From: an uncultured Gammaproteobacteria bacterium
GTDB lineage: Bacteria; Patescibacteriota; Microgenomatia; Levybacterales; UBA12049
Assembly (NCBI GenBank): GCA_964523705.1
Contig: CAZFYA010000001.1
Coordinates: forward strand, 185,420-249,419
Direction of reading: 5' to 3'
DNA: 64,000 bases
The notes beneath the pieces were generated by a model. The model made no database searches, was not told the DNA's origin, and worked only from the letters and a program-made list of their open reading frames with translations. Position 1 is the first letter of the stretch. Every line of letters begins with the position of its first letter. The position numbers and the translations under genes are program-made. Of the stretch, positions 134 to 38,224 are shown piece by piece.

Positions 134-2014
134 TTATTTTGGGGTGCAAATAAGAGGGCAAAAATGAATTGATTCTTGATCAGGTGTGCAATTTGGGTCT
201 ACTCTACAATCAAAAAAGGCCATTGGCGTTGGAGTTGGAGTATTTGTTGGTGTTGGCTTTCCTCCTTCAATTGGTGCTGTTGTTGGCGTTGGAGTTGGAG
301 TAAAGGTTGGGGTCGGAGTTTGCGTATCTACAATAGGACCAGTTCCTGAAAGCAACATCCTTACTGTTATTGCCGGATATGATGGCGAAGGACCTATTGA
401 TAAAACTTTACTAAATGGGTAGTTAACTCCATTTATTAGCCAGCTTAAATTATATTCTCCCGCAGTAAGGTTATTAAATTTAAAATATCCACTTGAATTT
501 GTTTGAGTTTTTAAAGCTTGTTGTCCGGTAATTGAAGTTTCCACGTTTGAATAACCTTGATCAATTCCGTCATCAATTTTACCGTTATTGTTTGTGTCTA
601 GATATACTTTTCCGTCAATATAATAATTTTGAGAGGGTAAATTAGGATCTGAAGGATTTGATGGATCTAATGGGTTATCACCTATTGGCTCTGGTTCAAT
701 CGGTGTAAGCCCAGAACATGCATTGAGAGTTTTAAATACATTTAATCTTTTACCAATTGGCCTATCTGTTGAGATAGGGTCTGCATTATCAACTAAACAT
801 GATTTTACCTGACTTGGCGAAAGCCCTGGATTAATTGATAAAAGAAGCGCTGCTGCTCCAACTACGTGAGGCGTTGCCATACTTGTTCCCTGTAATAATC
901 TATATGAACCACCAGGGGACGTAGAAAGAATTACATTTGCAGGTGTTTTTGTTGCAGCACTATTTCCACCGGGTGCTGCAATATCAACAACAGAACCATA
1001 ATTTGAATAATATGCTCGTTCATCGTTTGGGCCTGTTGCGCCAACTGCAATGACTCCATTACATGATGCAGGACTAAAATAAGAAGCATCTGTTTTACTG
1101 TTTCCGGCTGCAACAATTACACTTGCTCCTTTGTTTAAAGCGTAATTTACTACATCTTGTTGAGTTGCCGAACAAGGACTATTTGAACCTAGACTTAAAT
1201 TGATAGCTTTTGCTCCATTATCTACCGCATAAATTATTCCTGAATTTATCGCAGTTGTTGTACCTCTTCCTTGAGAATTCATTACCCTTACAGCAATAAT
1301 ACTAATATTCCAATTAATACCAGGGATTCCAATACTATCGTTTCCTGCTGCTCCTATTGTTCCTGCAACATGGGTTCCGTGATATTGATTATCCACCGCG
1401 CTTGAGGAGACACAATTTCCTGAAAGACAATCCGCTGCTAAAACCACCCTTCCATTAAATTCAGGATGACTCCCATCAACTCCGGTATCAACTACTGCAA
1501 TTTTTGTTTGAGAAGTTCCGGTACCAAGATTCCAGGCGTTTTGCATATCAATTTTTTTAAATGCCCATAATAATGAATAATCCGGATCGCTTGGAATAGC
1601 TTGAGTAGTAAAAATGTAATTTGGCTCTGCTACTTCAATTTCTTCAAACTCTAATAATTGATTAATCAAACCTTTAACATCTGTTCCCTTTTTTAGACTT
1701 AATAAGTAATATCTTGAAAGAACTGGATTATTTGATGTTTCATATACTTTTTCTTGAGAACTTATGCCTAAATCTTTAAGTTTGTTTTGAAATTCTAAAT
1801 TATCATTAAAACCGGTTTTGTATTTTACAATTACCTGATCTTCAACAAATTGAGCTGTAAAATTTTCTGCTTTTTTAGTTCCTTTAGGAAGAAAAATAAC
1901 TAGAAATATTAAAACAACGAGAACAAAAAAGCCAATTGAAAATAATATTTTTTTTCTTTTACTTAGGTTTTTAATCTTCTCAATCAACTTGATTGATGTA
2001 ATTTTTTTCCACAT
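134..2014 (-). CDS. Subtilisin-like serine protease (peptidase S8) with N-terminal membrane anchor, I9-type propeptide and Thr/Pro-rich, Cys-containing C-terminal tail
   Basis: Catalytic triad motifs VVDTGVDGSHPEF (Asp), HGTHVAGTIG (His) and GTSMATPHVVGAAALL (Ser). An N-terminal hydrophobic segment is followed by a propeptide-like region (QVIVKYKTG...AEPNYIF). The C-terminus carries PTPTFTPTPTPT repeats and CRVDPNC...FCPLIC. Confidence 0.85.
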   Translation of the reverse strand: MWKKITSIKLIEKIKNLSKRKKILFSIGFFVLVVLIFLVIFLPKGTKKAENFTAQFVEDQVIVKYKTGFNDNLEFQNKLKDLGISSQEKVYETSNNPVLSRYYLLSLKKGTDVKGLINQLLEFEEIEVAEPNYIFTTQAIPSDPDYSLLWAFKKIDMQNAWNLGTGTSQTKIAVVDTGVDGSHPEFNGRVVLAADCLSGNCVSSSAVDNQYHGTHVAGTIGAAGNDSIGIPGINWNISIIAVRVMNSQGRGTTTAINSGIIYAVDNGAKAINLSLGSNSPCSATQQDVVNYALNKGASVIVAAGNSKTDASYFSPASCNGVIAVGATGPNDERAYYSNYGSVVDIAAPGGNSAATKTPANVILSTSPGGSYRLLQGTSMATPHVVGAAALLLSINPGLSPSQVKSCLVDNADPISTDRPIGKRLNVFKTLNACSGLTPIEPEPIGDNPLDPSNPSDPNLPSQNYYIDGKVYLDTNNNGKIDDGIDQGYSNVETSITGQQALKTQTNSSGYFKFNNLTAGEYNLSWLINGVNYPFSKVLSIGPSPSYPAITVRMLLSGTGPIVDTQTPTPTFTPTPTPTTAPIEGGKPTPTNTPTPTPMAFFDCRVDPNCTPDQESIHFCPLICTPK

Positions 2015-2546
2015 TTTCTATTTCCGGTAATTTTTTTATCTCATCTATCATACTATCTAAATTTACATCTTTTTCAAAATTAATTATATAATAATTTTTA
2101 AGTGCAGAGCTTGACGATTCATACATTTTTTCTTCAGATATCATTCCTAAATCTGCAAGAATTTTATCAATTTCTGTTTTTCTATTAATTGATACCTCAT
2201 CCGGACCCATCCCCTGTTTATACTTAACTATTAATTCTCCTTCTACAACTTCCGGCGTTGGTAAAAGCCCATCAGCAGGGGTTGGTGAATTTGTTAAATT
2301 AGTAGTCGTGGTTGTAGTTGAAATATTAATTTTAATAGATTCCCCTTTTTCTTGATATTTAAAGTATGCAAAAGCAGTAATAGCTACAGTTATTAATAAA
2401 AATAAAATAATTATGGCAAGAAACAAAAGCTTTCGTTTTTTTGGTAAAGGATTTTCCTTATTAACCACTTCTTCATTGGGCCCTTGACTTGGAACTTGTG
2501 GTTGTTGGTTTTCAATTATTGGTGGAACTTGCTGATTATCTTCCAT
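1980..2546 (-). CDS. Membrane-anchored stand-alone subtilisin propeptide / peptidase-inhibitor I9-like protein (paralog of the propeptide of the adjacent subtilase)
   Basis: Gln/Pro-rich N-terminus, one TM helix, Thr-rich stretch, then GELIVKYKQG...LADLGMISEEKMYE...KNYIN. This aligns to VIVKYKTG...LKDLGISSQEKVYE...PNYIF of the subtilase pro-region. The stop overlaps the subtilase start. Confidence 0.5.
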   Translation of the reverse strand: MEDNQQVPPIIENQQPQVPSQGPNEEVVNKENPLPKKRKLLFLAIIILFLLITVAITAFAYFKYQEKGESIKINISTTTTTTNLTNSPTPADGLLPTPEVVEGELIVKYKQGMGPDEVSINRKTEIDKILADLGMISEEKMYESSSSALKNYYIINFEKDVNLDSMIDEIKKLPEIENVEKNYINQVD

Positions 2547-2549: not shown

Positions 2550-5225
2550 TTAATTATTACTTGGTGACATTTGTGTTCCATCATTTCCCATTACCGGTGG
2601 CGAAGTTTGTGGTTCATCTTGAACTACTTGACCGTTAAATGGCTGATTTACATTCTGCTGTCCTGTTTGCTGATTAGGGTTTTCCTCCTGCCCTTGATTT
2701 TGCTGTTGTTGATTTTGTGGTTGCGCTACTTTTGTAAAAGTAAATTGCTCTTTTTGTTTATCATAATCAATTTTTATCTTATCCCCTGAAACAAATGTTT
2801 TATTGATTATTAAAATTGCAATAGGGTTTTCAATTGATGTTTGGATAAGTCTTCTTAAAGGCCTTGCTCCATAAATTGGATCATAACCATCTTTAGCAAG
2901 TATTGCTAATGCTTCAGGTGTTACTTCAATATCAAACCCTTGAGTTTTTAAAAGCTTGCCGGTTGCACTAATTCCTAATTTTGCAACCTCTACCATATTT
3001 TTTTGAGTTAATGGCTCAAAAACAACTACGCCATCAAATCTATTTAAAAGTTCCGGTTTAAAGAATTTCCTAAGTTCCTCAACTAATAACTTATTTAATT
3101 CTTTAAACTTTTTAGCAACCTTATCTTCTGTTGTTTCTTCAGGCTTTACTTCCTGTGCAGGCTTTGTTTTATCACTCTTTTTATCATCTTTTCCAACTCC
3201 TAGTAATTCTTGCTGAATTAAAGCGCTTCCAATATTTGAAGTGGCAATGATAATAGTATTTTTAAAAGAAATTGTATTTCCCTTGTTATCAGTTAGTCTT
3301 CCATCCTCAAGGAGCTGAAGCATTATGTTAAAAACATCCGGATGAGCTTTTTCTATTTCATCAAGAAGCACTATTGAATATGGTTTTGTTCTAACTGCTT
3401 CTGTTAATTGTCCTCCCTCTTCATAACCAACATAACCGGGTGGTGCACCAATAAGTTTTGCAACCTCATGTTTTTCCATGTATTCACTCATATCCAGTCT
3501 TACCATGACATCTTCTCTGCCAAATAAAATCTCTGCTATGGTTTTAGCAAGTTCGGTTTTACCTACCCCCGTTGGACCAAGAAAAATAAAGGAGGAGATT
3601 GGTCGATTCATACTTGATAAACCTATTCTTCCTCTTCTGACTGCTTCTGAAACAACTGAAACAGCATTTTCCTGATTTATCAGTCTTTTATGAATTGTGT
3701 CTTCTAAGTGAAGCAGTTTTTCGCTTTCATTTTCAGTCAGTTTGGTAATTGGAATTCCGGTCCAACTGCTAACCACTTTTTCTATGTCTTCTCTTTTAAT
3801 TTGATTATCTTGTCTTTTCCCCTCGTTTAATTGAAGCCGTACTTCAGCTGCAGCCTCATCTAAAAGGTCTACTGCTTTATCCGGAAGATACCTTTCTCCT
3901 ATATATCTTTTAGAAAGCTTAACAGATTGCTTAATTGCTTCAGGAGTCATTACAACCTTATGAAAAGCTTCATATTTTGGTTTTAAAACATTTAACATTT
4001 CTATTGCATCTTCTTCCGATGGTTCTTCAACTAAAACAGGCTGAAACCGTCTTTCAAACGCCTTATCTTTTTCAAAGTGTTTTCTATATTCAGTAGTTGT
4101 AGTTGTACCAATTATTTGAAGCTGACCCCTGGCTAGAAACGGCTTTATAATATTTGAGGCATCCATTGCACCATCTGTATCACCTGCTCCAATTAAAGTG
4201 TGCACTTCGTCTATAAATAGTATGATTACTCCGCTTGAGGCTTGAGTTTCTTTAATAACACTTCTTAATCTTTCTTCAAATTCACCTCTATGAGAGGCAC
4301 CGGCAACCAAAGAGGATAAATCAAGCTGAATTATTCTTTTATTAGCTAAGTCTTTTGGTGCTTTTCCAGAAACTATATCCATTGCTAAACCCTCTACAAT
4401 AGCTGTTTTCCCAACTCCTGCTTCCCCAATGATAATCGGGTTATTCTTGGTTCTTCTAAGTAAAATGTGGATAAGTCTTTGAACTTCTCTATCTCTTTTG
4501 GTAATTGGATCTAATTTTCCATCCTTTGCCTGTTGAGTTAAGTCAATCCCGAATTGCTCAAGTGATGATTTTTTCCCGTGCATAAAACCTGATGATTTAG
4601 AAAGCTTTTCTTCAATCTTATCCTTACTTAAACCCTGGGACTGAAGCTGACTTGAAATTTGTGAGTTAGCTGAAAAAAGAATAATTAAAACATCTTCAGG
4701 GGAGATAAACTCAACTCCTCTTTTTTTAACCTGTTGATAGGCTTTTTCAAAAATTTGTTTTGAATCTTGACCTAGAGTTGGTTGTCCTGTAAAACTTCCC
4801 ATTACTTCTTTTGCTTGAATTTCTTTTGAAAGCTTTGAAACATCAACTGAAAAATCCGAAAGTAATTTATATACTTCACTGTCAAAAAGAAGAGCAAGTA
4901 ATAATTGCTCAGGCTCAATTGTTGCTTGTTGAATTCTTTTTGTCTCTGCTTGCGCTTGAGTTAAAACTTGAGACATTCTTGTATCCAAGTGGGACATAAC
5001 TGACATGTCTTGTCTTGTTTCAGGATTTATATTTGAGCCAACAATATTTGCCTGTTGAGGTTGCTGGGGTTGTTGCGGTTGTTGAACAGCTGATGGTTGG
5101 TATTGTGGACCAACATTAGGAATAGGCTGTTGGGGAACACCAAAGCTATTAACTGGCATATTAGTAGCTGTATTTTCAGCCACTTTTTCGTCTTGTTTTT
5201 TACTTGAAAATAAATTTCCAAACAT
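2550..5225 (-). CDS. Clp/Hsp100-family AAA+ chaperone with Clp_N domain and two AAA+ modules; no long M-domain (ClpA/ClpC-like architecture). It has Gln-rich low-complexity N- and C-terminal extensions
   Basis: Walker A motifs GEAGVGKTAIVEGLA and GPTGVGKTELAKT, Walker B IILFIDEVH, sensor-2 GARPLRRLIQ. Only about 20 aa separate DEAAAEV from WTGIP, where ClpB has about 125 aa. QPQQPQQPQQ sits at the N-terminus and QNQQQQNQGQ at the C-terminus. Confidence 0.85.
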   Translation of the reverse strand: MFGNLFSSKKQDEKVAENTATNMPVNSFGVPQQPIPNVGPQYQPSAVQQPQQPQQPQQANIVGSNINPETRQDMSVMSHLDTRMSQVLTQAQAETKRIQQATIEPEQLLLALLFDSEVYKLLSDFSVDVSKLSKEIQAKEVMGSFTGQPTLGQDSKQIFEKAYQQVKKRGVEFISPEDVLIILFSANSQISSQLQSQGLSKDKIEEKLSKSSGFMHGKKSSLEQFGIDLTQQAKDGKLDPITKRDREVQRLIHILLRRTKNNPIIIGEAGVGKTAIVEGLAMDIVSGKAPKDLANKRIIQLDLSSLVAGASHRGEFEERLRSVIKETQASSGVIILFIDEVHTLIGAGDTDGAMDASNIIKPFLARGQLQIIGTTTTTEYRKHFEKDKAFERRFQPVLVEEPSEEDAIEMLNVLKPKYEAFHKVVMTPEAIKQSVKLSKRYIGERYLPDKAVDLLDEAAAEVRLQLNEGKRQDNQIKREDIEKVVSSWTGIPITKLTENESEKLLHLEDTIHKRLINQENAVSVVSEAVRRGRIGLSSMNRPISSFIFLGPTGVGKTELAKTIAEILFGREDVMVRLDMSEYMEKHEVAKLIGAPPGYVGYEEGGQLTEAVRTKPYSIVLLDEIEKAHPDVFNIMLQLLEDGRLTDNKGNTISFKNTIIIATSNIGSALIQQELLGVGKDDKKSDKTKPAQEVKPEETTEDKVAKKFKELNKLLVEELRKFFKPELLNRFDGVVVFEPLTQKNMVEVAKLGISATGKLLKTQGFDIEVTPEALAILAKDGYDPIYGARPLRRLIQTSIENPIAILIINKTFVSGDKIKIDYDKQKEQFTFTKVAQPQNQQQQNQGQEENPNQQTGQQNVNQPFNGQVVQDEPQTSPPVMGNDGTQMSPSNN

Positions 5226-5258
5226 ATTTATTAGCGTACCAGTTTTTTTATAAAAATA

Positions 5259-7700
5259 CTAATTTTTTACTGTCTCTTTTTTATCCTCTTTTGGTATCTC
5301 CGCCTTTGCTTCAGCGTGCATTTTTTTAGGCTCCTCATGTTTCCTTCGAGTTGCATCAACCATGGTTTCTTCCTCTTCTTCTTTTTTGCCAAGTTCCGCA
5401 AATACTGTTTTTGCTGCTTCAAGTTTTGCTTTAAGATAAGCAATTACCTCGGTTTGAGAAAATCCTCCGATAAGAAGGAATGGCAAGATTGTTCCAACCT
5501 CCTCCATGCCTTTATTAACATTTTTATTATCAGATGAGGCTAAAAGATTAATTGTTTCATCAATTTTATCCATGTCTTCTTTTACCCATTCTTCTCTACT
5601 TCTTACTTTCCCCTCAAGAGCCTTTGGCACTTCTAGCTCATGATAATTTTCAGTCCAAATCTTTTTAACTGATTCATAGTCATCAATATTTACAGACTGT
5701 ACTCTGTTTACCACCGGGAAGGTTTCATGAGTTTCGCCAAGCTCTGTAATTCCTGCTTGTTGTAAAACCTGACTGGCAATACTACTTCCTCTTTCTTTTG
5801 CTTCTTTAAGTTTTTGCCTTAAATCCTCACTTATTTCTCCATCTCCCTTATCAACTGTTGCCAAAATGGATGTAGCCAGCGTATCCCCATTTGCTTTTGC
5901 TTTTAATAACTCCTCTTTAAGCTCGGTTGCTTTTTGCTTATCATAAGCTGAAGCGATTTTGTCCGGTTTTGCCAACTGGTTAATAACTTCTGTTAGCTTT
6001 GCATTTTCAGCTGCCTGACCAAGAACCTTTGAGGGCGAAGCACCTGAAGCAATGTTTGACGCTGTAATAACTGAATTTGCAAGATTATTTCCCTTAAGTT
6101 TTTCTGCAACCAATTGATTTTTAACCGATGAATATTTCTCTCGCTCGCTACTTGAGCTAATTCCCTTAGGATTAGCTATTTTTTCTAAAGTTTCATGCAT
6201 CTTAGCAACATTTTGTCTCCTGCTAAGGTCATGGGACATTAAAGAAGTTTCATATCTTGCAATATCTGACATTGTTGGAATACTAAGGTTTGATAAATTG
6301 GCAATACGGGCATTTGCCTGGTTTATGTTCATATTAGCTGCTTGAGACATAAAGCTTGCGGCATCTGCCTTAACTTCTGGGATCTCAATTTTTGCACCAA
6401 ACGGAAGTCTTTTAGCAAGCCCTGCACCAAACGGCTTAACTGGCAGTGGCTGCTGCGGAGGAGGAGATGAAGGATTTACTTTTGCCATTAAATTAGAGCC
6501 TCTGGCTGCTAATTGCTTAAACCAATTATCCTCTCCTTCGCTTAAGGAATTAATATAATCGAGAAATATCTGTAAAAGTAAAAAGGGAAGAATTATAACT
6601 ACCCAAAGCATAAGAAGAGCAACAATATATAGAGCAAAAGTATCTTTATTGTTAACACTATTTGTTAAAGATAAGATTTGCTGTGGTCCGCCAAGTAAGA
6701 TATTTATAGCTGTTGGGTAAATAACTTCTGTATTTTTAGGAAAGTTTAGAGGTATATTTGTGTCTGATCGCCATATTTGAACAAGACCGGCTAAAAATAT
6801 TGCAAATAATGGACCGTATAATAACCAGCGGAAAAATTCACCAACCCAAATTTTAGCTGTGTTTCGAATCGGCGAATAAAACAAAAGAAGCGGGAAAATC
6901 GGCGAGATGATAATAAAGAACCATAAGATTATTTTTCTTAAAATTAAAATTCCAGACATTACATAATACGTTAAAGCAGTTAGTTTTACCAAAAGAAGTG
7001 AGATAAAAACAGATTCATCAAATTCCGGTCCGTAAATTCTAAAACCTTGAAAATCCTTGTAATTAAAGCCGATATTTAAAAGGTTTTTTTGAGAAATACA
7101 ACTACTAACATTAGTAGTACTACAAGTTTGACTAGCTCCAGGCACTGTTAAGAAAAAGCCCTGAATAATATCCATTACTTGGTAAATAAACTGAATTAGA
7201 GCAAAGGAAAAAGTAATTAAAAGTACAATTAAAATAAATCTTGGAATAAAACGCATTACCGTAATGTTTTTACCTCTGGTAACAATCAGCACAAATGCTG
7301 TTCCTAGAATGAATAGAATTAAAAAGGCATAAGTAATATTTCTAATATTTGCCCAAAAGGCAGCAATTGGATTTTGTTGTCCTTCTCCTACATAAGACCA
7401 GTTATATCGCTGTAGTGTCCAATCCAAAAACTCTCCTGATCTGGCCCCTGCTTTTCCAACAAAAGTAACATCAGCATCTCTTATCCATTGTCCTTCAGGA
7501 CTTGTTTCATCAGCTAAAACTTCTTTTACAGGTTCTTGTTCTTCTGATAAAACAGGGGATTCAACTAAATCATAAGATTCTTCCTGTTGCTGTATATCTT
7601 GTTGAGGCATTGGTGTTTGAGCAGAAACAGAAAATGAACTAAACAGAAAGATTGTTAAAAATAAAAATGTAGTAAAAACCAGGGCAGTTAGTTTTTTCAT
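5259..7700 (-). CDS. Large polytopic membrane protein: signal peptide, about 100-aa exported domain, at least 7 TM helices, about 400-aa C-terminal charged coiled-coil domain; tentatively VirB6/TrbL-like
   Basis: Signal peptide MKKLTALVFTTFLFLTIFLFSSFSVSAQ. Multiple long hydrophobic helices fall in residues about 120-400. The C-terminal half is rich in K/E/A heptad-like sequence. It lies 5 nt downstream of the small 2-TM protein. Confidence 0.6.
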   Translation of the reverse strand: MKKLTALVFTTFLFLTIFLFSSFSVSAQTPMPQQDIQQQEESYDLVESPVLSEEQEPVKEVLADETSPEGQWIRDADVTFVGKAGARSGEFLDWTLQRYNWSYVGEGQQNPIAAFWANIRNITYAFLILFILGTAFVLIVTRGKNITVMRFIPRFILIVLLITFSFALIQFIYQVMDIIQGFFLTVPGASQTCSTTNVSSCISQKNLLNIGFNYKDFQGFRIYGPEFDESVFISLLLVKLTALTYYVMSGILILRKIILWFFIIISPIFPLLLFYSPIRNTAKIWVGEFFRWLLYGPLFAIFLAGLVQIWRSDTNIPLNFPKNTEVIYPTAINILLGGPQQILSLTNSVNNKDTFALYIVALLMLWVVIILPFLLLQIFLDYINSLSEGEDNWFKQLAARGSNLMAKVNPSSPPPQQPLPVKPFGAGLAKRLPFGAKIEIPEVKADAASFMSQAANMNINQANARIANLSNLSIPTMSDIARYETSLMSHDLSRRQNVAKMHETLEKIANPKGISSSSEREKYSSVKNQLVAEKLKGNNLANSVITASNIASGASPSKVLGQAAENAKLTEVINQLAKPDKIASAYDKQKATELKEELLKAKANGDTLATSILATVDKGDGEISEDLRQKLKEAKERGSSIASQVLQQAGITELGETHETFPVVNRVQSVNIDDYESVKKIWTENYHELEVPKALEGKVRSREEWVKEDMDKIDETINLLASSDNKNVNKGMEEVGTILPFLLIGGFSQTEVIAYLKAKLEAAKTVFAELGKKEEEEETMVDATRRKHEEPKKMHAEAKAEIPKEDKKETVKN

Positions 7701-7705
7701 AAATT

Positions 7706-7999
7706 TTAGCTAAATCCGGGAATTTGCAGTACATCAACTGCAATTACTTCAATAAAAACATAACCAAAAACCGCTAATAATAAGCCAATGATTGCATATA
7801 TAATATAGCTTTTTCCCTCTTTTAATCTATCGGGATTTCCTCTTGAGGTGGTAATTATATAACCACCATAAATAATAAAAATTAAAGCAACTCCACCAAT
7901 TAAGCCTAAGCCAATACCGTAAAACTTGGACACAAAGCCGGGAACTGTGTTTGGAATACAACCAAGCTCTGTCCAAGTCTCATTTACTTGACAGTTCAT
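7706..7999 (-). CDS. Small 97-aa two-TM membrane protein with N-terminal Cys pair; tentatively TrbC/VirB2-type pilin-like
   Basis: MNCQVNETWTELGCIPN, then helix FYGIGLGLIGGVALIFIIYGGYII, a short charged loop RGNPDRLKEGKS, and helix YIIYAIIGLLLAVFGYVFIEVIA. It lies between dnaJ and the 813-aa membrane protein with 26-nt and 5-nt gaps. Confidence 0.55.
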   Translation of the reverse strand: MNCQVNETWTELGCIPNTVPGFVSKFYGIGLGLIGGVALIFIIYGGYIITTSRGNPDRLKEGKSYIIYAIIGLLLAVFGYVFIEVIAVDVLQIPGFS

Positions 8000-8025
8000 A
8001 AATAAATCGTAGCATATTTTAGGGG

Positions 8026-8916
8026 TTAAAACCAGCTTCTTTTTTTGGTGTTTTCTTTGTCAAACTCCTCTAAAATTGACTTTTGTTTTGAGGTTAAATG
8101 TTTTGGAACAGTAACTTTAATTTTTACATAGTGGTCTCCCTTACCAGAACCTCTTACATGTTTTATGCCTTTTTGAGCAAGTCTGATAATGGTTTGCGGT
8201 TGAGTACCCGAGGGGATTCTAATTTTTACAATTCCATCAACTGTTTCAATTTCTTCCTGTCCGCCTAGAGCTGCTTTAGAAAATGGAATTTCTTTTTCCG
8301 AAACTACATCATATCCTTGTCTTTGAAATTTTTTATCCGGTCTAACCCTAACTATTACATCGTAATCTCCAAAACTTATCCTTGAACCATTATCAATGCC
8401 TTGGGGAATTTTTACAGTTTGCTCTCTCCCATCAATTGAAATTCTTTTCTGTACTCCTTTAACCGCTTCCATAAAATCAATAGTTAAAGAATAGGTTGGT
8501 TTTCTTTGTCGTCTGCCAAAAGGTGATGCTCCGCCAAAAAATTGCTCAAAAATCTCAAAAGGATCTGTAAATCCACCAAAATCAAAATCTCCGCCCTGAT
8601 TAGAAGTTGTATAGGTATAAGTAAAAGGACCATATTGTCCACCAAACGGACCGCCACCCCCAAATGGACCTTGTCCTCCTGGCCCTCCCTGTTCAAAAGC
8701 TTGATGCCCAAACTGATCGTAAGTTTGTCTTTTTTGAGGATCTGATAAAACTTCGTATGCTTTAGTTACTTCTTTAAATTTTTGCTCTGCTTCTTTTCCC
8801 TTATTTCTATCCGGATGGTACTGCAAAGCTAATTTTCGATAAGCTTTTTTTATTTCATCAGCCGTTGCTGATTTTGTAAGACCAAGTGTTTGATAATAAT
8901 CTTTTGTAGCTGCCAT
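8026..8916 (-). CDS. dnaJ: DnaJ-family J-domain co-chaperone, class II (CbpA-like; no CxxCxGxG zinc finger)
   Basis: J domain DYYQTLGL...YRKLALQYHPDRNKG with HPD motif, then a Gly/Phe-rich region and a C-terminal substrate-binding domain. It sits last in the hrcA-grpE-dnaK-dnaJ order. A TAA stop was verified. Confidence 0.8.
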   Translation of the reverse strand: MAATKDYYQTLGLTKSATADEIKKAYRKLALQYHPDRNKGKEAEQKFKEVTKAYEVLSDPQKRQTYDQFGHQAFEQGGPGGQGPFGGGGPFGGQYGPFTYTYTTSNQGGDFDFGGFTDPFEIFEQFFGGASPFGRRQRKPTYSLTIDFMEAVKGVQKRISIDGREQTVKIPQGIDNGSRISFGDYDVIVRVRPDKKFQRQGYDVVSEKEIPFSKAALGGQEEIETVDGIVKIRIPSGTQPQTIIRLAQKGIKHVRGSGKGDHYVKIKVTVPKHLTSKQKSILEEFDKENTKKRSWF

Positions 8917-8934
8917 AAACTCTATTATATTATA

Positions 8935-8959
8935 AAAGGCGCATACTCCTTGCGCCTTT
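8935..8959 (-). terminator. Intra-operon hairpin (9-bp perfect stem AAAGGCGCA/TGCGCCTTT, 7-nt loop) between the dnaK tail and dnaJ; possible attenuator/partial terminator
   Basis: The sequence aaaggcgcatactccttgcgccttt can be seen directly. It is flanked by A/T-rich sequence on both strands. Confidence 0.4.
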
Positions 8960-8985
8960 ATTAACTCAATTTTTTAATTTTTTCT

Positions 8986-9201
8986 TTAGTTAACTACTTC
9001 TCCTTCAATTGGCTCGTCTTTATCTTTTTTTGAAGTATCTTCTTTTTTCTCACCGTTTGTTTTATCATCACTTGGTGCTTCTTGTCCTTCTTGTCCTTGA
9101 GCCTGTCCTTGTTTTTGATACATTGCCTGTCCTACTTTTTGCAAAGAATCTGATAATTCTTTAGTTTTTGTTTCAATCTCTTCCTTGCTTCCCGTATCCA
9201 A
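8986..9201 (-). other. dnaK: C-terminal 71 codons of DnaK (lid helices and acidic/Gln-rich tail), in the same frame as dnaK but separated from it by an in-frame TAG plus one codon
   Basis: Translation ILDTGSKEEIETKTKELSDSLQKVGQAMYQKQGQAQGQEG...EGEVVN matches the canonical DnaK C-terminus (cf. E. coli ...[23 protein letters not shown]...). Both ORF end coordinates are congruent mod 3. Confidence 0.7.
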
Positions 9202-9204
9202 AAT

Positions 9205-10902
9205 CTATTTTAGCTCCTCTATCTTTTCTTCGACTTCTTTTTTAAGGTTTTCATCGACTTTTCCTTCTCCTTCTCTTAGGGTTTTTTCAGCGGTAAAAAT
9301 AAGTGAGTCTGCCTGGTTTCTTATCTCTACTTTTTCCTTTTTCTCTAAGTCCTCTGTAGCATGAGCTTCAGCTTCCTTAGTCATTCGGTCAATCTCATCC
9401 TTATTTAAACCTGTTGAGCCGGTAATTTTAATACTTTGTTCTTTTCCGGTTGCCTTATCCTGTGCTTTAACATTTAAAATACCATTAGCATCAATATCAA
9501 AAGTAACTTCAATTTGAGGAACTCCTCTTGGTGCCGGTGGAATTCCGTCTAAAACAAATCTTCCCAAAGACTTATTATCATTTGCCATTGGTCTTTCTCC
9601 TTGTAATACGTTTATTTCAACTTGGGTTTGATTATCCGCAGCTGTTGAAAATACTTGGGATTTTGAAGTAGGAATAGTTGTATTTCTGTTAATTAAAGGT
9701 GTTGAAACACCACCTAGGGTTTCAAGTCCTAAAGTTAGAGGAGTTACATCTAAAAGCAATACGTCTTTTACTTCTCCGCCTAAAACTCCTGCCTGAACTG
9801 CTGCGCCAATTGCTACTACTTCATCAGGATTAACTGACTTATTAGGTTCTTTGCCAAAAAACTTAGTGACTGCTTCAATTACTTTTGGCATTCTGGTCAT
9901 TCCACCGACTAAAATTACCTCATCAATGTCTGAATTTTTCTTTTTTGCGTCTTTTAGAGCAAGTTCAACCGGTTTTAAGGTTTTTTGAATTAAAGGATCA
10001 ACAATTTTTTCAAGATTAGCTCTTGTCATCGTCATGGTTAAATGAAGCGGGCCGTCTTTTCCTTGAGTTATAAAAGGCTGATTAATCTGAGCTTCCTGGG
10101 CAGTTGAAAGCTCAATTTTTGCCTTTTCCGCTGCTTCTCTAAGTCTTTGCAAAGCTTGTGGGTCTTTTCTTAAATCAACATTGTTTTCTTTTTTAAACTC
10201 TTCAGCAAGGTAGTCAATTATTTCCTGGTCAAAATCATCTCCTCCTAAGTGTGTATCTCCATTGGTTGATTTTACTTCATAAACTCCCTCACCTAATTCA
10301 AGAATTGAAATATCAAAGGTTCCACCACCTAAATCATAAACTGCAATTGTGTGGGCGTTTTTTTTGTCTAAACCATAGGCAAGTGCTGCTGCTGTTGGTT
10401 CGTTAATAATTCTTAATACTTCAAGTCCGGCAATTTCTCCTGCTTGTTTAGTTGCTTGTCTTTGTGAGTCATCAAAATATGCAGGAACTGTAATAACAGC
10501 CTGAGTTACTTTTCCACCTAAATAGCTCTCCGCATCGCTTTTAATTTTTTGTAAAATTTTAGCCGATAATTCTTGTGGAGTAAAAGTTCTTCCCTCAACT
10601 TCAACAATTGCCATACCGTCTCTTCCGGATTTAATTGCATAAGGAAGCCACTTAGCATCTCTTTGTACTGATTCATCAGTAAACTTTTTACCCATTAGTC
10701 TTTTTATTGAAAAGATTGTAGTTTTTGGTTTTAAAACCATTTGTCTTTTAGCAACTTCTCCTACAACGTGAGTAATCGGATCAACAACCGATGGAATTAC
10801 ATTTCTACCTTCTCTTGAGTGAATAACCTTAGGATTACCACCCTCCATTACGGCAACACATGAATTTGTTGTACCTAAATCAATTCCTATTATTTTTCCC
10901 AT
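9205..10902 (-). CDS. dnaK: Molecular chaperone DnaK (Hsp70), terminated at residue 565 by TAG
   Basis: [36 protein letters not shown] and the substrate-binding domain. It ends ...[11 protein letters not shown] where full-length DnaK continues. Confidence 0.9.
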
Positions 10903-10979
10903 ATTTTTATTTCTCCTTTTTTAACTTTTAATTAGTTAATAATAAAAAATTAGTCATCTAATTTCAAGTTATTAACAAA

Positions 10980-11438
10980 TTACATTGCTTTTCCAACTAT
11001 AACTTGTGCAACTCTTAAAACTCTATCGTTTAACATATATCCTGCTTTTACTTCCTCAACTACTTTTCCGTCTTCTCCCTCAACCGTTTGGACACATTCC
11101 ATTGTTTCAGGGTTAAAATCTTTTCCTAAAACATCCATTTTTTTAACTCCTTCATTTTCAAATGATAGTAAAAGCTGGTTTATACTCATAATTACTCCTT
11201 CGTCTTGAGTATGTTTTTCAGCCAGCATTAAATTATCAAGAGCAGGTAAGATTCGAAGGAGAAGCTGCTTATTTGCAAGTCTTATCCATTCATTTTTATC
11301 TTTTGCTACTCTTTTTTCTAAATTTTGATAATCTGCCAATGTACGTTTTAATTGATGTCTTAATTTATTTAACTCTTCTTCTGTTTTTTCTGTTTCTTTT
11401 TTTGTTTCTCTTGTCTCTTTTGATTTATCCTTTTTCAT
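10980..11438 (-). CDS. grpE: Nucleotide exchange factor GrpE
   Basis: Lys/Glu-rich N-terminus, coiled-coil (LADYQNLEKRVAKDK) and a C-terminal beta-domain. It sits between hrcA and dnaK. Confidence 0.85.
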   Translation of the reverse strand: MKKDKSKETRETKKETEKTEEELNKLRHQLKRTLADYQNLEKRVAKDKNEWIRLANKQLLLRILPALDNLMLAEKHTQDEGVIMSINQLLLSFENEGVKKMDVLGKDFNPETMECVQTVEGEDGKVVEEVKAGYMLNDRVLRVAQVIVGKAM

Positions 11439-11450
11439 TTGTTTTTTTAT

Positions 11451-12182
11451 TTACCAACCCCTGGCAATTTCTGAAATTAAATTTTTAAAATACCTGACTG
11501 TTGGTATAACGTAATTATAATTTAACCTGTTTGGTCCTAAAACTCCAATCTCCCCTGATAAATGCATTGGTGTTTCATAATGTGTAAACACAAATCCATA
11601 TGGTCCTTGAAGTTTTGGCCCCAGTTCTTCTCCTAAAAGAACATGGACATCTCCATCATCTATTTGACTATTAAATATACTGTTAAAGTACTCAAACTCG
11701 TCTAAAACTGATAATAAGTTTTTTGTTATATCTATGTCAAAAAACTCCGGTAAATCTAAAATATTTGCGTATCCTGAGCAGAAAAAATCTCCTTCATTAG
11801 TCGTTGCAATTGCTAACGATCTGGTTTTTTCTGCCAAAGATCTTGTTAATTGTTTTAAAAACTTATCTTCTCTGTCTCTTAAGTCCCAAACTTTTTCTTT
11901 TAGTAAAACTTCTTCTGCTGTTGAAAGTTCTTTTTCCTTCATCAGCTGGTTTACGTAAAACTTCATCCCCTCTGGCGTTGGAACTCTTCCGGCTGAAATG
12001 TGTGGTTTTTTTAAATATCCAAGTTTAGTTAACTTAACCATCTCATTTCGAATTGTTGCCGGAGAAGCCGACAAATTATGTTTTTTCTCTAAAGTCTCTG
12101 AACCAACTGCTTCTGCAGTTGCAATATATTCCTCAATAAGACTTTTTAAAATTTCTACCTGCCTTTGTGTTAAATCATGCAT
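11451..12182 (-). CDS. hrcA: Heat-inducible transcription repressor HrcA (short form)
   Basis: N-terminal winged-helix region LTQRQVEILKSLIEEYIATAEAVGSETL. It is the first gene of the grpE-dnaK-dnaJ operon, with a CIRCE-like inverted repeat upstream. Confidence 0.8.
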   Translation of the reverse strand: MHDLTQRQVEILKSLIEEYIATAEAVGSETLEKKHNLSASPATIRNEMVKLTKLGYLKKPHISAGRVPTPEGMKFYVNQLMKEKELSTAEEVLLKEKVWDLRDREDKFLKQLTRSLAEKTRSLAIATTNEGDFFCSGYANILDLPEFFDIDITKNLLSVLDEFEYFNSIFNSQIDDGDVHVLLGEELGPKLQGPYGFVFTHYETPMHLSGEIGVLGPNRLNYNYVIPTVRYFKNLISEIARGW

Positions 12183-12223: not shown

Positions 12224-12250
12224 TTAGCAGTACTATACCACGACTGCCAA
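12224..12250 (-). promoter_or_regulatory. CIRCE-like HrcA operator (minus-strand reading TTGGCAGTC-N9-TACTGCTAA) overlapping a sigma70-type promoter (TTGACA-N18-TATAGT) for hrcA
   Basis: The 9-N9-9 inverted repeat matches the CIRCE consensus TTAGCACTC-N9-GAGTGCTAA at 7/9 in each arm. The -35 TGTCAA is at 12256-12261 (revcomp) and the -10 ACTATA at 12232-12237 (revcomp). Confidence 0.5.
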
Positions 12251-12320
12251 TTTCTTGTCAAGGGGGTAATTTTATGCTTTTTTTATTTAAAAAAATTCTC
12301 TACAATAGGGAAAGATAAAT

Positions 12321-14715: not shown

Positions 14716-15192
14716 TTAACTAAAAACAGTTGCTATCCAACTACCTACAAAACGGGTAATTAACACAACGACTAGAGCTATTAGCAAATGTTCTCCTACT
14801 ACTTTCCAGGCTTTTTCTTTGTTTTGCTTAGCAATAAAATAGCTAAAAATACCCAGTATTAAAAATCCCCAGACAACACTTACTAAAATTGCTTCTTGTA
14901 ATTCAAGAAGTAAAATAGGGACTATAAAAGTTGAAGCAAAAATTAATTTTGAGAGAAAAGTTGATATTGTTGATTCCCAAATTGATTTAGCAGAGTGTTT
15001 ACTTTGCGATTCTTGAGAAATATGAATACCTAAGGCATCTGAAAAACTATCAGCAATGGCAATTGTTAAAATTCCACCTATAATTACAAGCTTTGAATGA
15101 GTACTGGCATCAAGTCCTACAATTAAACCAAGAGTAGTAATTATTCCCGAGGTTAATCCAAAACTAAAACCGGTTATTACTGAAAGCTTCAT
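14716..15192 (-). CDS. VIT1/CCC1-family (DUF125)-like small membrane protein, putative Fe/Mn transporter
   Basis: Five TM helices. The G-F-S-F-G-L-T-S-G-I-I-T-T-L-G glycine-rich first helix resembles the VIT family. Confidence 0.35.
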   Translation of the reverse strand: MKLSVITGFSFGLTSGIITTLGLIVGLDASTHSKLVIIGGILTIAIADSFSDALGIHISQESQSKHSAKSIWESTISTFLSKLIFASTFIVPILLLELQEAILVSVVWGFLILGIFSYFIAKQNKEKAWKVVGEHLLIALVVVLITRFVGSWIATVFS

Positions 15193-15250: not shown

Positions 15251-15697
15251 TTATAAATTTATTTCACTAATTAATTGTTGCTTCAGAGCTTTCAATTCTT
15301 TTCCCCTAGACTTACTATCTTTTCCAAATATAATTTTTTCATCCATCGCCCAAATAGGTTTAGTTGGATTTGGATCATTAAAGTATCTCGGAATTATCCA
15401 CCAGTGCAAATGACAATCCTTATTCCCTAATAATTCATAATTTATTTTTTGAGGCTTAAATGCCTTAAAAACAGACTCTGCTACATCAGCCATTTCTGTT
15501 AAAAAAACATCACGAAATTTTTTATCTAATTCACAAAGCTCCCTTTTGTGAACTTTTGACAAAAAAAGAGTTAATCCTTTATAAAACTGGTTATCTGCAA
15601 GTACAACATAACCCGTAGAAAGCTCTTTAATAAAGTAAGGGTTAGCGTTTTTTTTAATCAGCTGAATACGCTCACAAATGAGACAATTATTTCCCAT
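15251..15697 (-). CDS. HIT (histidine triad) superfamily hydrolase-like protein with variant H-L-H-W-W motif
   Basis: N-terminal CLICERI (CxxC-like). Central ADNQFYKGLTLFLSKVH, and C-terminal NKDCHLHWWIIPRY where canonical HIT has HxHxHxx. Confidence 0.5.
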   Translation of the reverse strand: MGNNCLICERIQLIKKNANPYFIKELSTGYVVLADNQFYKGLTLFLSKVHKRELCELDKKFRDVFLTEMADVAESVFKAFKPQKINYELLGNKDCHLHWWIIPRYFNDPNPTKPIWAMDEKIIFGKDSKSRGKELKALKQQLISEINL

Positions 15698-32204: not shown

Positions 32205-32231
32205 ATATCACTTGACATAAGTGATTGCTAA
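32205..32231 (-). promoter_or_regulatory. CIRCE-like operator upstream of groES (minus-strand TTAGCAATC-N9-AAGTGATAT; core perfect IR ATCACTT-N5-AAGTGAT)
   Basis: An inverted repeat can be seen directly. It matches the CIRCE consensus at 8/9 and 6/9. Confidence 0.45.
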
Positions 32232-32232
32232 A

Positions 32233-32261
32233 TTTATACACCAAAAGTATTTTTCTGTCAA
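32233..32261 (-). promoter_or_regulatory. Sigma70-type promoter for groESL (minus-strand TTGACA-N17-TATAAA) immediately upstream of the CIRCE-like element
   Basis: The revcomp of 32233-32261 reads TTGACAgaaaaatacttttggtgTATAAA. Confidence 0.45.
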
Positions 32262-38223: not shown

Positions 38224-38224
38224 T

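What the first reader, a model, noticed from the sequence alone, without database searches (positions are those of the whole stretch)
5259..7999. Two membrane proteins (VirB2/TrbC-like small 2-TM protein and an 813-aa polytopic protein with giant coiled-coil tail) embedded inside the HrcA heat-shock operon
Seen: on the minus strand the order is hrcA-grpE-dnaK-dnaJ-[97-aa 2-TM protein]-[813-aa membrane protein]-Clp/Hsp100. The gaps are 26, 5 and 33 nt, so these are almost certainly co-transcribed. The 97-aa protein has an N-terminal Cys pair (C3...C14, CIPN) and two hydrophobic helices separated by a short charged loop, the architecture of TrbC/VirB2-type pilins. The 813-aa protein has a signal peptide, at least 7 TM helices and a 400-aa K/E-rich coiled coil, which is reminiscent of VirB6/TrbL. 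Inference: either a T4SS-like or pilus-like surface module co-regulated with chaperones, or a novel membrane stress factor. Insertion of non-chaperone genes between dnaJ and a Clp ATPase is unusual either way.
Basis: partly seen in the sequence, partly recalled or inferred. Interest (0 to 1): 0.6.

Follow-up and report, generated by a model that had tools for sequence, protein, structure and literature searches.

The report
T4SS pilin, VirB6-like protein, odd Clp
Next to the heat-shock chaperone genes of an uncultured Levybacteria (Patescibacteria) genome sit a type IV secretion pilin gene, a very divergent VirB6-like membrane-platform gene and an unusual Clp/Hsp100 ATPase gene. The three stay together across this bacterial group, which suggests a secretion or pilus machine served by its own protein-unfolding motor.

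Summary
On the minus strand the order is hrcA-grpE-dnaK-dnaJ-[97 aa]-[813 aa]-Clp, with gaps of 26, 5 and 33 nt.

- **97-aa protein:** it passes Pfam's T4SS_pilin threshold (PF18895).
- **813-aa protein:** it gives only sub-threshold but recurrent TrbL/VirB6 matches. Its predicted layout is that of an "extended VirB6": signal peptide, about 5 membrane helices, then a conserved ~430-aa helical repeat domain that is probably cytoplasmic. It is not a giant coiled coil.
- **Conservation:** in 83 related loci, mostly Levybacteria, the pilin lies just upstream in 79/81 and the Clp just downstream in 70/72. dnaK lies upstream in 58/62.
- **Linkage without chaperones:** the pilin, VirB6-like and Clp genes also stay together in four rearranged loci that lack dnaK upstream. 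One non-Levybacteria locus has VirB6-like–Clp–pilin beside TrsD-like and coupling-protein-like T4SS genes.
- **The Clp is atypical:** it has no M domain, a His replaces the pore-loop Tyr in D1, and it starts with a conserved MFGNLF peptide.
- **Co-transcription with the HrcA operon is not secure:** the CIRCE-like operator occurs only at hrcA, a conserved terminator-like hairpin follows dnaK, and the pilin has its own conserved promoter-like box.

No VirB4 lies in the window. Published tables list VirB4 as absent from about half of Levybacteria assemblies.

Verdict: a new variant of the Patescibacteria T4SS, of moderate to high interest.

The parts
7706..7999 (-). 97-aa VirB2-like T4SS pilin (PF18895). 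It has an N-terminal Cys pair (C3, C14), two TM helices, a basic cytoplasmic loop and an invariant C-terminal IPGF motif. It has no signal peptide.
   Evidence: Pfam 33.1 bits against GA 26.6. NCBIfam NF045849 E 2.7e-9. Hydropathy. Family alignment A5. 184 homologues, nearly all PF18895.
5259..7700 (-). 813-aa 'extended VirB6-like' polytopic membrane protein. It has a signal peptide (aa 1-27), an outside N-domain, about 5 TM helices plus a re-entrant segment (aa 111-380), and a conserved C-terminal helical repeat domain (aa ~421-790).
   Evidence: TrbL/VirB6 sub-threshold match. hhalign against TrwI gives P=0.003, and TrwI is the top ORF hit. AF2 secondary structure. Positive-inside analysis. 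The family has 813 representatives.
6561..7370 (-). Membrane core of the 813-aa protein (aa 111-380). It includes the invariant motif SPIRNTAKIWxGEFFRWLLY and an outside loop (aa 175-229) with a Cys pair.
   Evidence: Alignments A1, A2 and A7. The TrbL match covers aa 137-308. The core is 40-74% identical across 150 representatives.
5262..6440 (-). C-terminal hydrophilic domain (aa 421-813), probably cytoplasmic. It has three (E/K)xxxGNxLAxSIL repeats at aa 533, 602 and 635, and a conserved ILPFLLIGGFSQTEVIAYLKAKLEAAK motif.
   Evidence: No Pfam, PDB or fold match.
2550..5225 (-). 891-aa atypical class-I Hsp100/Clp ATPase. In order: N-terminal MFGNLF..KK peptide, Q/P-rich linker, Clp_N domain, D1 with pore loop AGASHRGEFE, no M domain, D2, and a low-complexity tail.
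   Evidence: Pfam. Scores fall below the ClpB and ClpA cut-offs and the M-domain positions are missing. The N-terminal motif is present in 73/74 relatives. Pore loop and spacing. No conserved ClpP-binding loop.
8006..8014 (-). Promoter-like extended -10 box TGCTACGAT, 6 nt before the pilin ATG. A -35-like TGGTTT lies at 8034-8029. The mRNA is probably leaderless.
   Evidence: The motif is present in 58/82 related loci, against about 3.5% expected. Other first genes in the window show the same layout.
5233..5241 (-). Weaker promoter-like box TGGTACGCT, 7 nt before the Clp ATG.
   Evidence: The strict motif is found in only 20/75 relatives.
8934..8959 (-). GC-rich hairpin plus T-run between dnaK and dnaJ (terminator-like). 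It is followed by TATAAT boxes at 8934-8924.
   Evidence: Folding energy -15.5 kcal/mol, z-score -3.8. Conserved in L001, L008 and L003, with changes that keep the stem.
12224..12261 (-). hrcA promoter (TTGACA-N18-TGgTATAGT) overlapped by the CIRCE-like inverted repeat TTGGCAGTC-N9-TACTGCTAA.
   Evidence: Conserved upstream of hrcA in 56/64 loci and absent upstream of the pilin and Clp genes.
8026..12182 (-). The chaperone genes hrcA, grpE, dnaK (with an in-frame TAG at 9204-9202) and dnaJ. They are the usual upstream neighbours of the triad.
   Evidence: Synteny counts.
134..2546 (-). A 188-aa membrane-anchored prodomain-like protein and a secreted S8 subtilase. They are packed directly behind the Clp gene (3-nt gap, then a 35-nt overlap). 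In relatives the protease type varies (S8, M4 or M64).

Best explanation
**What it is**
- The 97-aa gene encodes a VirB2-like pilin of the Patescibacteria-type (monoderm, MPF_FATA-related) type IV secretion system.
- The 813-aa gene encodes a very divergent 'extended VirB6': a membrane platform or channel subunit with a large C-terminal domain.
- Together with the next gene, an atypical Hsp100/Clp ATPase, they form a triad. The triad is conserved across Levybacteria and recurs in at least one other Microgenomatia lineage beside other T4SS genes.

**How it most likely works (inferred)**
- The pilin inserts with both termini outside and its basic loop inside.
- The VirB6-like protein, predicted N-out and C-in, oligomerises as the site where pilins are recruited or a conduit is formed.
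- Its ~430-aa cytoplasmic repeat domain recruits cytosolic partners.
- The adjacent Clp has no M domain and no conserved ClpP-binding loop, and carries a conserved N-terminal MFGNLF peptide on a flexible linker. It most likely acts at this platform as an unfoldase or extractor.

**Relation to the chaperone genes**
- In Levybacteria the triad lies just downstream of hrcA-grpE-dnaK(-dnaJ).
- It has its own promoter-like element and no CIRCE-like operator.
- It is therefore a conserved neighbour of the HrcA operon rather than a demonstrated part of it.
For: **Shown**
- The pilin passes the PF18895 cut-off and matches the Mycoplasma ICE pilin-like family.
- TrbL/VirB6 is the only recurrent family match for the large protein. 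It appears in 20 of 51 close and 1 of 21 distant members. TrwI/VirB6 is the top ORF hit, and hhalign gives P=0.003 over 167 columns.
- Synteny across 83 loci: pilin upstream in 79/81, Clp downstream in 70/72.
- The pilin-VirB6-like-Clp unit persists without hrcA/dnaK in L047, L074 and L081.
- VirB6-like and Clp genes are adjacent in the distant locus L090.
- L095 has VirB6-like-Clp-pilin, with a TrsD-like gene and a TrwB_AAD_bind/TraG-D_C ATPase nearby.
- The Clp has family-wide peculiarities.
- The promoter and operator pattern is documented.

**From the literature**
- PMC12102498 reports VirB6 homologues as 'scarce' in Microgenomatia, 'suggesting extreme sequence divergence'. It also reports dispersed T4SS genes there.
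- PMC12857230 describes extended VirB6 proteins.

**Inferred**
- The topology, from the positive-inside rule.
- Any physical or functional link between the Clp and the VirB6-like protein.
Against: - The VirB6 assignment rests on sub-threshold profile matches: 19.6 bits against 25.9, only 1 of 21 distant members matching, and no NCBIfam hit.
- Two AlphaFold models (pLDDT 66-68) gave no Foldseek match to any solved structure, including T4SS entries.
- No VirB4 or VirD4 lies in the window or in any flank of a Levybacteria-type locus.
- The published table lists VirB4 as absent from 24 of the 44 Levybacteria assemblies in the part I read. These are draft MAGs.
- Some distant family members have no Clp next to them (L092, L093, L094).
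- The whole region is syntenic across Levybacteria, so adjacency there may partly reflect slow rearrangement.
Confidence: 0.55

Rival explanations
1. Neighbours by inheritance only. The pilin and VirB6-like genes are ordinary, dispersed T4SS parts that work with a VirB4 encoded elsewhere. The Clp is simply the lineage's general disaggregase, belonging with DnaK/DnaJ/GrpE. The adjacency has no functional meaning.
For: - The flanks are syntenic across Levybacteria: MetRS, TatD and a glycosyltransferase lie upstream in L001, L003 and L004.
- Separate promoter-like boxes lie before the pilin and Clp genes.
- dnaK-clpB operons are known in other bacteria (my own knowledge, for example Thermus).
- T4SS genes are reported as dispersed in Microgenomatia (PMC12102498).
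- Some distant relatives lack an adjacent Clp.
Against: - The pilin-VirB6-like-Clp unit moves as a block away from hrcA/dnaK in L047, L074 and L081.
- L090 keeps VirB6-like and Clp adjacent, and L095 places the Clp between the VirB6-like and pilin genes.
- The Clp lacks the M domain that ClpB uses to cooperate with DnaK.
- The Clp also has a non-canonical D1 pore loop and a conserved N-terminal peptide.
Confidence: 0.25
2. Not T4SS at all. The two membrane proteins form a lineage-specific envelope or membrane stress module, for example a membrane-protein quality-control station. It would use the Clp ATPase and downstream proteases, and be expressed with the heat-shock genes.
For: - It lies among hrcA-grpE-dnaK-dnaJ, a Clp ATPase and secreted proteases. 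In relatives a membrane-anchored AAA+ protein follows.
- The VirB6 similarity is sub-threshold and there is no structural match.
- VirB4 is reported absent from many Levybacteria assemblies.
Against: - The small protein passes the curated T4SS_pilin threshold.
- A distant locus carries TrsD-like and coupling-protein-like genes next to the same proteins.
- No CIRCE-like operator lies before the pilin or Clp genes.
Confidence: 0.15
3. A remnant of an integrated conjugative element inserted between dnaJ and clpB.
For: T4SS-type genes interrupt a chaperone gene row. The pilin resembles a Mycoplasma ICE pilin-like protein.
Against: - There is no integrase, relaxase, VirB4/VirD4, repeats or tRNA in the region.
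- GC content resembles that of the neighbouring genes.
- The locus is conserved at the same place in about 80 species, with 38-91% protein identity. That indicates vertical inheritance under selection.
Confidence: 0.03

Closest known systems
Patescibacteria (CPR) type IV secretion system, MPF_FATA-related (Quinonero-Coronel et al. 2025, PMC12102498; Wang et al. 2023, as cited in PMC12857230)
   Same: Both have VirB2-like PF18895 pilins in a monoderm lineage. Both are chromosomal and vertically inherited, with no relaxase, and both include a VirB6-like polytopic protein.
   Different: - Here the pilin and VirB6-like genes are far from any virB4. They lie downstream of hrcA-grpE-dnaK-dnaJ and are tightly linked to an Hsp100 ATPase.
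- The VirB6-like family scores below the TrbL threshold. That fits the paper's report that VirB6 homologues are scarce in Microgenomatia.
- The paper's main text contains no occurrence of 'chaperone' or 'DnaK'.
Extended VirB6 proteins (Alvarez-Martinez and Christie 2009, as summarised in PMC12857230). My own recall of examples: F-plasmid TraG, Rickettsiales VirB6 paralogues, Tn916 Orf15
   Same: Both have 5 or more hydrophobic helices plus a large C-proximal hydrophilic domain of variable length. In this family, lengths range from 350 to 2790 aa around a conserved core.
   Different: - The C-terminal domain here is a novel helical repeat with no detectable relatives.
- It is predicted to be cytoplasmic.
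- The sequence link to TrbL/VirB6 is weak.
R388 TrwL/TrwI (VirB2/VirB6) pilus-assembly platform
   Same: Both pair a two-helix pilin with a polytopic VirB6 partner. TrwI is the best R388 match to the family HMM.
   Different: - No PF04956 (TrbC/VirB2) match.
- The pilin has no signal peptide.
- There is no structural match to any solved T4SS entry.
- There is no adjacent VirB3, VirB4, VirB5 or VirB8.
ClpB/Hsp104 and ClpA/ClpC Hsp100 ATPases
   Same: All have a Clp_N domain and two AAA+ rings with intact Walker motifs. All have the canonical D2 pore loop PPGYVGY.
   Different: - No M domain, unlike ClpB and ClpC.
- No conserved ClpP-binding tripeptide, unlike ClpA and ClpC.
- The D1 pore-loop Tyr is replaced by His.
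- It has a conserved N-terminal MFGNLF peptide and low-complexity extensions.
- Scores fall below all NCBIfam equivalog cut-offs.
Hsp100-driven membrane translocons: Plasmodium PTEX (HSP101 with the EXP2 pore) and chloroplast ClpC/Hsp93 at the TIC complex. These are functional analogies recalled from general knowledge, not tested here
   Same: Both pair an Hsp100 unfoldase with a membrane channel.
   Different: There is no homology between the membrane parts, and no evidence here of a physical complex. This is an analogy only.

Membership tests
Pfam PF18895 T4SS_pilin | Profile score at or above the curated gathering threshold | tested here: met
   33.1 bits against 26.6, E 6e-8. Most of the 120 listed homologues carry PF18895.
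Pfam PF18895 T4SS_pilin | Small protein with two hydrophobic helices joined by a short basic loop | tested here: met
   Helices at 31-49 and 70-88, loop TSRGNPDRLKEGKS.
Pfam PF18895 T4SS_pilin | Encoded next to T4SS machinery (VirB4 and others) | tested here: not met
   No VirB4 or VirD4 lies in the 64-kb window or in related flanks. Only the distant locus L095 has TrsD-like and coupling-protein-like genes nearby.
Pfam PF18895 T4SS_pilin | Polymerises into a pilus | not testable with these tools
   This needs microscopy or biochemistry.
Pfam PF04956 TrbC/VirB2 | Profile match | tested here: not met
   Not listed at E up to 1.
Pfam PF04956 TrbC/VirB2 | Long cleaved N-terminal leader peptide | tested here: not met
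   The ORF starts 26 nt after the dnaJ stop with MNC... and has no upstream in-frame start. Only a few homologues have a leader.
Pfam PF04610 TrbL/VirB6 | Profile score at or above the gathering threshold | tested here: not met
   19.6 bits against 25.9. 20 of 51 close and 1 of 21 distant members match at E<0.01, best 4.4e-6.
Pfam PF04610 TrbL/VirB6 | Reciprocal similarity to a bona fide VirB6 | tested here: inconclusive
   The family HMM ranks the TrwI ORF first among all R388 and pCF10 ORFs, but at E 0.012. hhalign gives P=0.003 over 167 columns. PrgH gives no signal.
Pfam PF04610 TrbL/VirB6 | Polytopic topology: N-terminus outside, about 5 TM helices, central outside loop, C-terminus inside | tested here: met
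   Hydropathy, AF2 helices and positive-inside counts over 51 sequences support it. This is a prediction only.
Pfam PF04610 TrbL/VirB6 | Fold similar to a solved VirB6 | tested here: inconclusive
Pfam PF04610 TrbL/VirB6 | Gene neighbourhood with other T4SS genes | tested here: inconclusive
   It is adjacent to a PF18895 pilin in 79/81 loci. TrsD-like and coupling-protein-like genes appear only in L095 and L091. There is no VirB4.
ClpB (TIGR03346 / NF008118) | Equivalog score cut-off and presence of the coiled-coil M domain | tested here: not met
   891 bits against 1232. Profile positions ~415-526 are unmatched. The spacing from D1 Walker B to D2 Walker A is 211 aa, which is ClpA-like.
ClpA/ClpC (TIGR02639 and related) | Equivalog cut-off and a ClpP-binding hydrophobic-Gly-hydrophobic loop | tested here: not met
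   719 bits against 993. The tripeptide is present in only 3 of 59 relatives.
HrcA/CIRCE regulon (for the pilin, VirB6-like and Clp genes) | CIRCE-type operator at the promoter that drives the genes | tested here: not met
   The CIRCE-like repeat is found upstream of hrcA in 56/64 loci, before the pilin in 0/80 and before the Clp in 0/75. Read-through from hrcA past the dnaK hairpin cannot be excluded.

The most novel reading that the evidence does not exclude
In Levybacteria and related Microgenomatia, a T4SS-derived membrane machine is powered by a dedicated Hsp100 unfoldase rather than, or in addition to, VirB4. The machine consists of the VirB2-like pilin and the extended VirB6-like platform. 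The unfoldase docks on the VirB6-like cytoplasmic repeat domain through its N-terminal MFGNLF peptide. It then threads protein substrates, or extracts pilins, through the platform. That would identify a T4SS-associated unfoldase, a component that T4SS reviews list as unknown (PMC6362355).
Probability: 0.15. Interest if true: 0.85.

Novelty: new variant of a known kind. Interest (0 to 1): 0.58.

Why it matters
- **A candidate for the missing VirB6.** Patescibacteria T4SS genes are reported as essential for epibiotic growth in the one cultivated model studied, as cited in PMC12102498 and PMC12857230. VirB6 homologues were reported as scarce in Microgenomatia. This family has 813 representative clusters and is conserved across Levybacteria, Gottesmanbacteria and Shapirobacteria. 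It is a strong candidate for the missing, highly diverged VirB6.
- **A testable unfoldase.** Its constant linkage to an atypical Hsp100 gives a concrete candidate for the ATP-driven unfoldase or extractor of a T4SS-type machine. Reviews list this as an open question (PMC6362355).
- **Possible VirB4-independent function.** It may also explain how these parts could work in genomes where VirB4 is not detected.
- **A caution about operon calls.** Tight, co-directional gene packing in these genomes does not prove a single operon, because leaderless promoters sit only 6-8 nt before start codons.

Tried and rejected
- **Source contig.** An exact-sequence look-up of the 813-aa protein found nothing. 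The identical pilin is on record only on a 1.2-kb contig.
- **Sequence search of solved structures.** A profile search of PDB sequences with the family alignment found nothing below E 0.1.
- **Plasmid search.** tblastn of the membrane core against 72,556 plasmids gave only noise.
- **Canonical CIRCE.** The canonical sequence with up to 3 mismatches gave no hit. A relaxed pattern then found the lineage variant.
- **Extra genes in relatives.** Genes inserted between dnaJ or dnaK and the pilin in some loci are variable secreted or membrane proteins, not T4SS parts.
- **ICE remnant reading.** Rejected: no integrase, relaxase or tRNA, and the locus is vertically conserved.
- **ClpP-dependent protease reading of the Clp.** Rejected: the LGV tripeptide in the window protein is not conserved in the family.
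- **Giant coiled coil.** Rejected: the model shows many short helices and internal repeats.
- **VirB4 in the same genome.** I could not test this.


Full report
**1. What is in the window**

The window is AT-rich (about 31% GC). Its gene content is typical of Patescibacteria. The closest relatives of its proteins come from Levybacteria (class Microgenomatia) metagenome-assembled genomes.

The minus strand carries these genes:

| Gene | Coordinates |
|---|---|
| hrcA | 12182-11451 |
| grpE | 11438-10980 |
| dnaK | 10902-9205, interrupted by an in-frame TAG at 9204-9202 |
| dnaJ | 8916-8026 |
| 97-aa ORF | 7999-7706 |
| 813-aa ORF | 7700-5259 |
| 891-aa Clp/Hsp100 | 5225-2550 |
| 188-aa prodomain-like protein | 2546-1980 |
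| S8 subtilase | 2014-134 |

**2. The small protein**

- It scores 33.1 bits on Pfam PF18895 (T4SS_pilin), above the curated cut-off of 26.6.
- It scores 36.6 bits on NCBIfam NF045849, the Mycoplasma ICE 'pilin-like conjugal transfer protein'. That is just under the cut-off of 40.
- It gives no match to PF04956 (TrbC/VirB2) at E up to 1.
- It has two hydrophobic helices and a basic connecting loop. Family-wide it has conserved C3 and C14 (GCIPxxP) and a C-terminal IPGF.
- It has no signal peptide, because the ORF cannot start earlier.
- By the positive-inside rule both termini face outward, as in VirB2. This is an inference.

**3. The large protein**

- A signal peptide is followed by an acidic N-domain of about 85 aa, then five long helices with one extra hydrophobic segment (aa 111-380).
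- After these comes a hydrophilic region of about 430 aa.
- That region is conserved along its whole length in 60 homologues.
- AlphaFold2 models it as many short helices, not one long coiled coil.
- It contains three copies of (E/K)xxxGNxLAxSIL. The copy number rises with protein length across the family.
- K+R counts over 51 sequences place aa 28-110, 175-229 (which holds a Cys pair) and 311-356 outside. They place 141-151, 253-288 and the C-terminal domain inside.
- From my own knowledge, that is the topology reported for Agrobacterium VirB6.

**4. Is the large protein a VirB6?**

Evidence in favour:
- TrbL/VirB6 (PF04610) is the only Pfam family that recurs across the family.
- The window protein scores 19.6 bits, below the cut-off of 25.9.
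- 20 of 51 close family members match at E<0.01, the best at 4.4e-6. Only 1 of 21 distant members does.
- An HMM of the membrane core was searched against every six-frame ORF of plasmids R388 and pCF10. It ranks the TrwI/VirB6 ORF first, at E 0.012.
- hhalign aligns 167 columns to TrwI with P=0.003. VirB5, VirB8, PrgH, PrgK and PrgL give no signal.

Evidence lacking:
- Neither the full model (pLDDT 67.7) nor a core-only model (pLDDT 65.8) matched any solved structure by Foldseek.
- A profile search of PDB sequences found nothing.
- tblastn against plasmids found nothing.

An exhaustive search of 1.84 billion cluster representatives with the core gave these counts:

| E-value threshold | Representatives |
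|---|---|
| below 1e-3 | 813 |
| below 1e-30 | 234 |

Lengths run from 350 to 2790 aa around a core that is 40-74% identical. This conserved core with a variable hydrophilic tail is the 'extended VirB6' pattern described in PMC12857230. I conclude it is a probable, very divergent VirB6 relative. Membership by the curated threshold is not met.

**5. Conservation of the neighbourhood**

A scan of one genome per species found 149 genomes with a relative, and 80 loci were fetched. tblastn mapping gave:

| Neighbour of the VirB6-like gene | Loci with it / loci with enough flank |
|---|---|
| Pilin within 1 kb upstream | 79/81 |
| Clp downstream | 70/72 |
| dnaK within 6 kb upstream | 58/62 |
| hrcA upstream | 53/57 |
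| dnaJ upstream | 37/62 |

- In the remaining clade the order is hrcA-grpE-dnaK-pilin-VirB6like-Clp-protease-dnaJ.
- Four loci (L047, L074, L079, L080) lack hrcA/dnaK upstream. L047 and L074 keep pilin-VirB6like-Clp as a unit, as does L081. L080 keeps all three genes nearby, with the Clp upstream. L079 lacks both the pilin and the Clp.
- The family extends to Gottesmanbacteria, Shapirobacteria and other Microgenomates.
- Distant locus L090 has LGT-VirB6like-Clp.
- Distant locus L095 has VirB6like-Clp-PF18895 pilin.
  - A TrsD-like gene lies divergently upstream.
  - A 782-aa ATPase lies 3.5 kb away. It matches TrwB_AAD_bind (32.5 bits) and TraG-D_C (24.7 bits), both above their cut-offs.
- Other distant members (L092, L093, L094) have no adjacent Clp.

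The most persistent linkage is therefore pilin, VirB6-like protein and Clp, rather than the chaperone genes.

**6. The Clp partner**

- It has a Clp_N domain and two AAA+ modules with intact Walker motifs.
- It falls below all NCBIfam equivalog cut-offs.
- Alignments to ClpB and ClpC structures and profiles skip the M domain.
- The spacing from D1 Walker B to D2 Walker A is 211 aa, the ClpA-type spacing. The E. coli reference spacings come from my own memory.
- The D1 pore loop reads AGASHRGEFE in 63 of 69 relatives and none has a Tyr there. Canonical Hsp100s have KYR at this position. The D2 loop PPGYVGY is canonical in 69/69.
- There is no conserved ClpP-binding tripeptide.
- 73 of 74 relatives begin with M[FL]GNLFxxKK, followed by a Q/P-rich linker of variable length. 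L095 begins with MPGQLF.

These are not the features of a standard DnaK-cooperating ClpB.

**7. Transcription signals**

- The best sigma-70-like promoter lies upstream of hrcA. A degenerate CIRCE-like repeat (12224-12250) overlaps it.
- That repeat occurs upstream of hrcA in 56/64 loci. It occurs in 0/80 before the pilin, 0/75 before the Clp and 0/67 before dnaK.
- Between dnaK and dnaJ lies a GC hairpin plus T-run (-15.5 kcal/mol, z -3.8). It is conserved in L001, L008 and L003, with changes that keep the stem. TATAAT boxes follow it.
- The box TGCTACGAT lies six nt before the pilin ATG. The motif TGNTANNWT occurs within 40 nt upstream in 58/82 loci, against about 3.5% expected. It most often lies 6-9 nt from the ATG, with a TTGnnT box about 17 nt further up.
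- The same layout precedes many first genes in the window, such as rpsT. It is absent before grpE, dnaK, the VirB6-like gene and the protease genes.
- A weaker box precedes the Clp gene.

The genes are therefore co-directional and tightly packed, and no terminator separates dnaJ, the pilin, the VirB6-like gene and the Clp gene. However, the pilin/VirB6-like pair probably has its own, likely leaderless, promoter. HrcA control would require read-through past the dnaK hairpin. All of this is inferred from sequence, because no expression data were available.

**8. VirB4**

- No VirB4- or VirD4-like ORF is present in the 64-kb window.
- None is present in the ±10-kb flanks of the Levybacteria-type loci.
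- Table S1 of PMC12102498 lists VirB4 as present in 20 and absent in 24 of the 44 Levybacteria assemblies in the part I read.
- Among five listed genomes that carry this locus, three are 'No' (L015, L018, L023) and two are 'Yes' (L025, L039). These are draft MAGs, so absence is not proven.
- The same paper reports VirB6 homologues as scarce in Microgenomatia and T4SS genes as dispersed there. Its main text has no occurrence of 'chaperone' or 'DnaK'.
- Literature searches found no paper linking Patescibacteria T4SS parts to a Clp ATPase or to the dnaK operon.

**9. Interpretation**

- **Best-supported reading (confidence about 0.55).** This is a T4SS pilin plus an extended, highly diverged VirB6-like platform. 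Both are functionally tied to an atypical Hsp100. The triad sits next to, but is not demonstrably part of, the HrcA operon.
- **Main rival (about 0.25).** The adjacency is inherited synteny without functional coupling, and the Clp is just the lineage's disaggregase.
- **Non-T4SS membrane stress module (about 0.15).** This is disfavoured by the curated pilin match and by the L095 context.
- **ICE remnant (about 0.03).** This is very unlikely.
- **Most novel reading not excluded (about 0.15).** The Hsp100 is the unfoldase or extractor motor of this machine. Waksman's review lists the ATP-driven unfoldase of T4SSs as unknown (PMC6362355).

**10. Verdict**

- The co-transcription claim and the 'coiled coil' description need correction.
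- The feature is a new variant of a known kind of system, and of moderate to high interest.

Noticed in passing
window 9202-9204 (minus strand, inside dnaK): dnaK has an in-frame TAG stop. Close relatives have AAG (Lys) at this codon and an intact 635-aa DnaK. The reading frame continues for 71 more codons (9201-8986). This is either a sequencing error or a real nonsense mutation that truncates the lid.
   Followed up: partly
window 12224-12261 and about 32205-32260 (minus strand): A lineage-specific degenerate CIRCE operator, TTGGCAGTC-N9-TACTGCTAA, overlaps the -10 box of the hrcA promoter. It is conserved in 56/64 related loci. The groES promoter is followed by a different repeat, TTAGCAATCACTTATGTCAAGTGATA.
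   Followed up: partly
whole window, for example 14716-15192, 15251-15697, 16115-16531, 37300-37611, 58541-58963: Many first genes have an extended -10 box (TGnTAnnnT) exactly 6-8 nt before the ATG and no Shine-Dalgarno sequence. Leaderless mRNAs seem to be the rule. dnaK is an exception, with a GGAG.
   Followed up: partly
window 17559-20955 (+): A YcaO cyclodehydratase, a nitroreductase-fold protein and an M16 peptidase lie in a row. This looks like an azoline-type RiPP maturation trio. I did not look for a precursor peptide.
   Followed up: no
window 37669-38848 (+): PilN and PilO type IV pilus assembly genes lie next to rpsT. This is a pilus system separate from the T4SS-type pilin.
   Followed up: no
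L001 17623-20338 (also L003 and L074); beyond the left end of the window: Downstream of the protease, relatives encode a ~110-aa multi-TM protein followed by an N-terminally membrane-anchored Clp-like AAA+ protein (764-803 aa). This pair also travels with the cluster in the rearranged locus L074.
   Followed up: partly
window 134-2546 (minus strand) and the equivalent position in relatives: The gene behind the Clp is always a secreted protease with a separate prodomain-like protein. The protease family differs between lineages: S8 here, M4 in L003, M64-like in L004.
   Followed up: no
loci L007-L086 (record titles): Many species-representative MAGs that carry this Levybacteria-type locus are titled 'uncultured Gammaproteobacteria'. 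A few are titled Limnocylindrales, Lysobacterales or Sulfotelmatobacter. These are probably mislabelled or mis-binned records.
   Followed up: no
window 12321-14372 (+): A 683-aa polytopic membrane protein is divergently transcribed from hrcA. It has no Pfam match here, although its L001 orthologue is tagged PTPS_related. It is followed by glycosyltransferase, PMT and DUF2298 genes further along, which suggests a surface glycosylation region.
   Followed up: no
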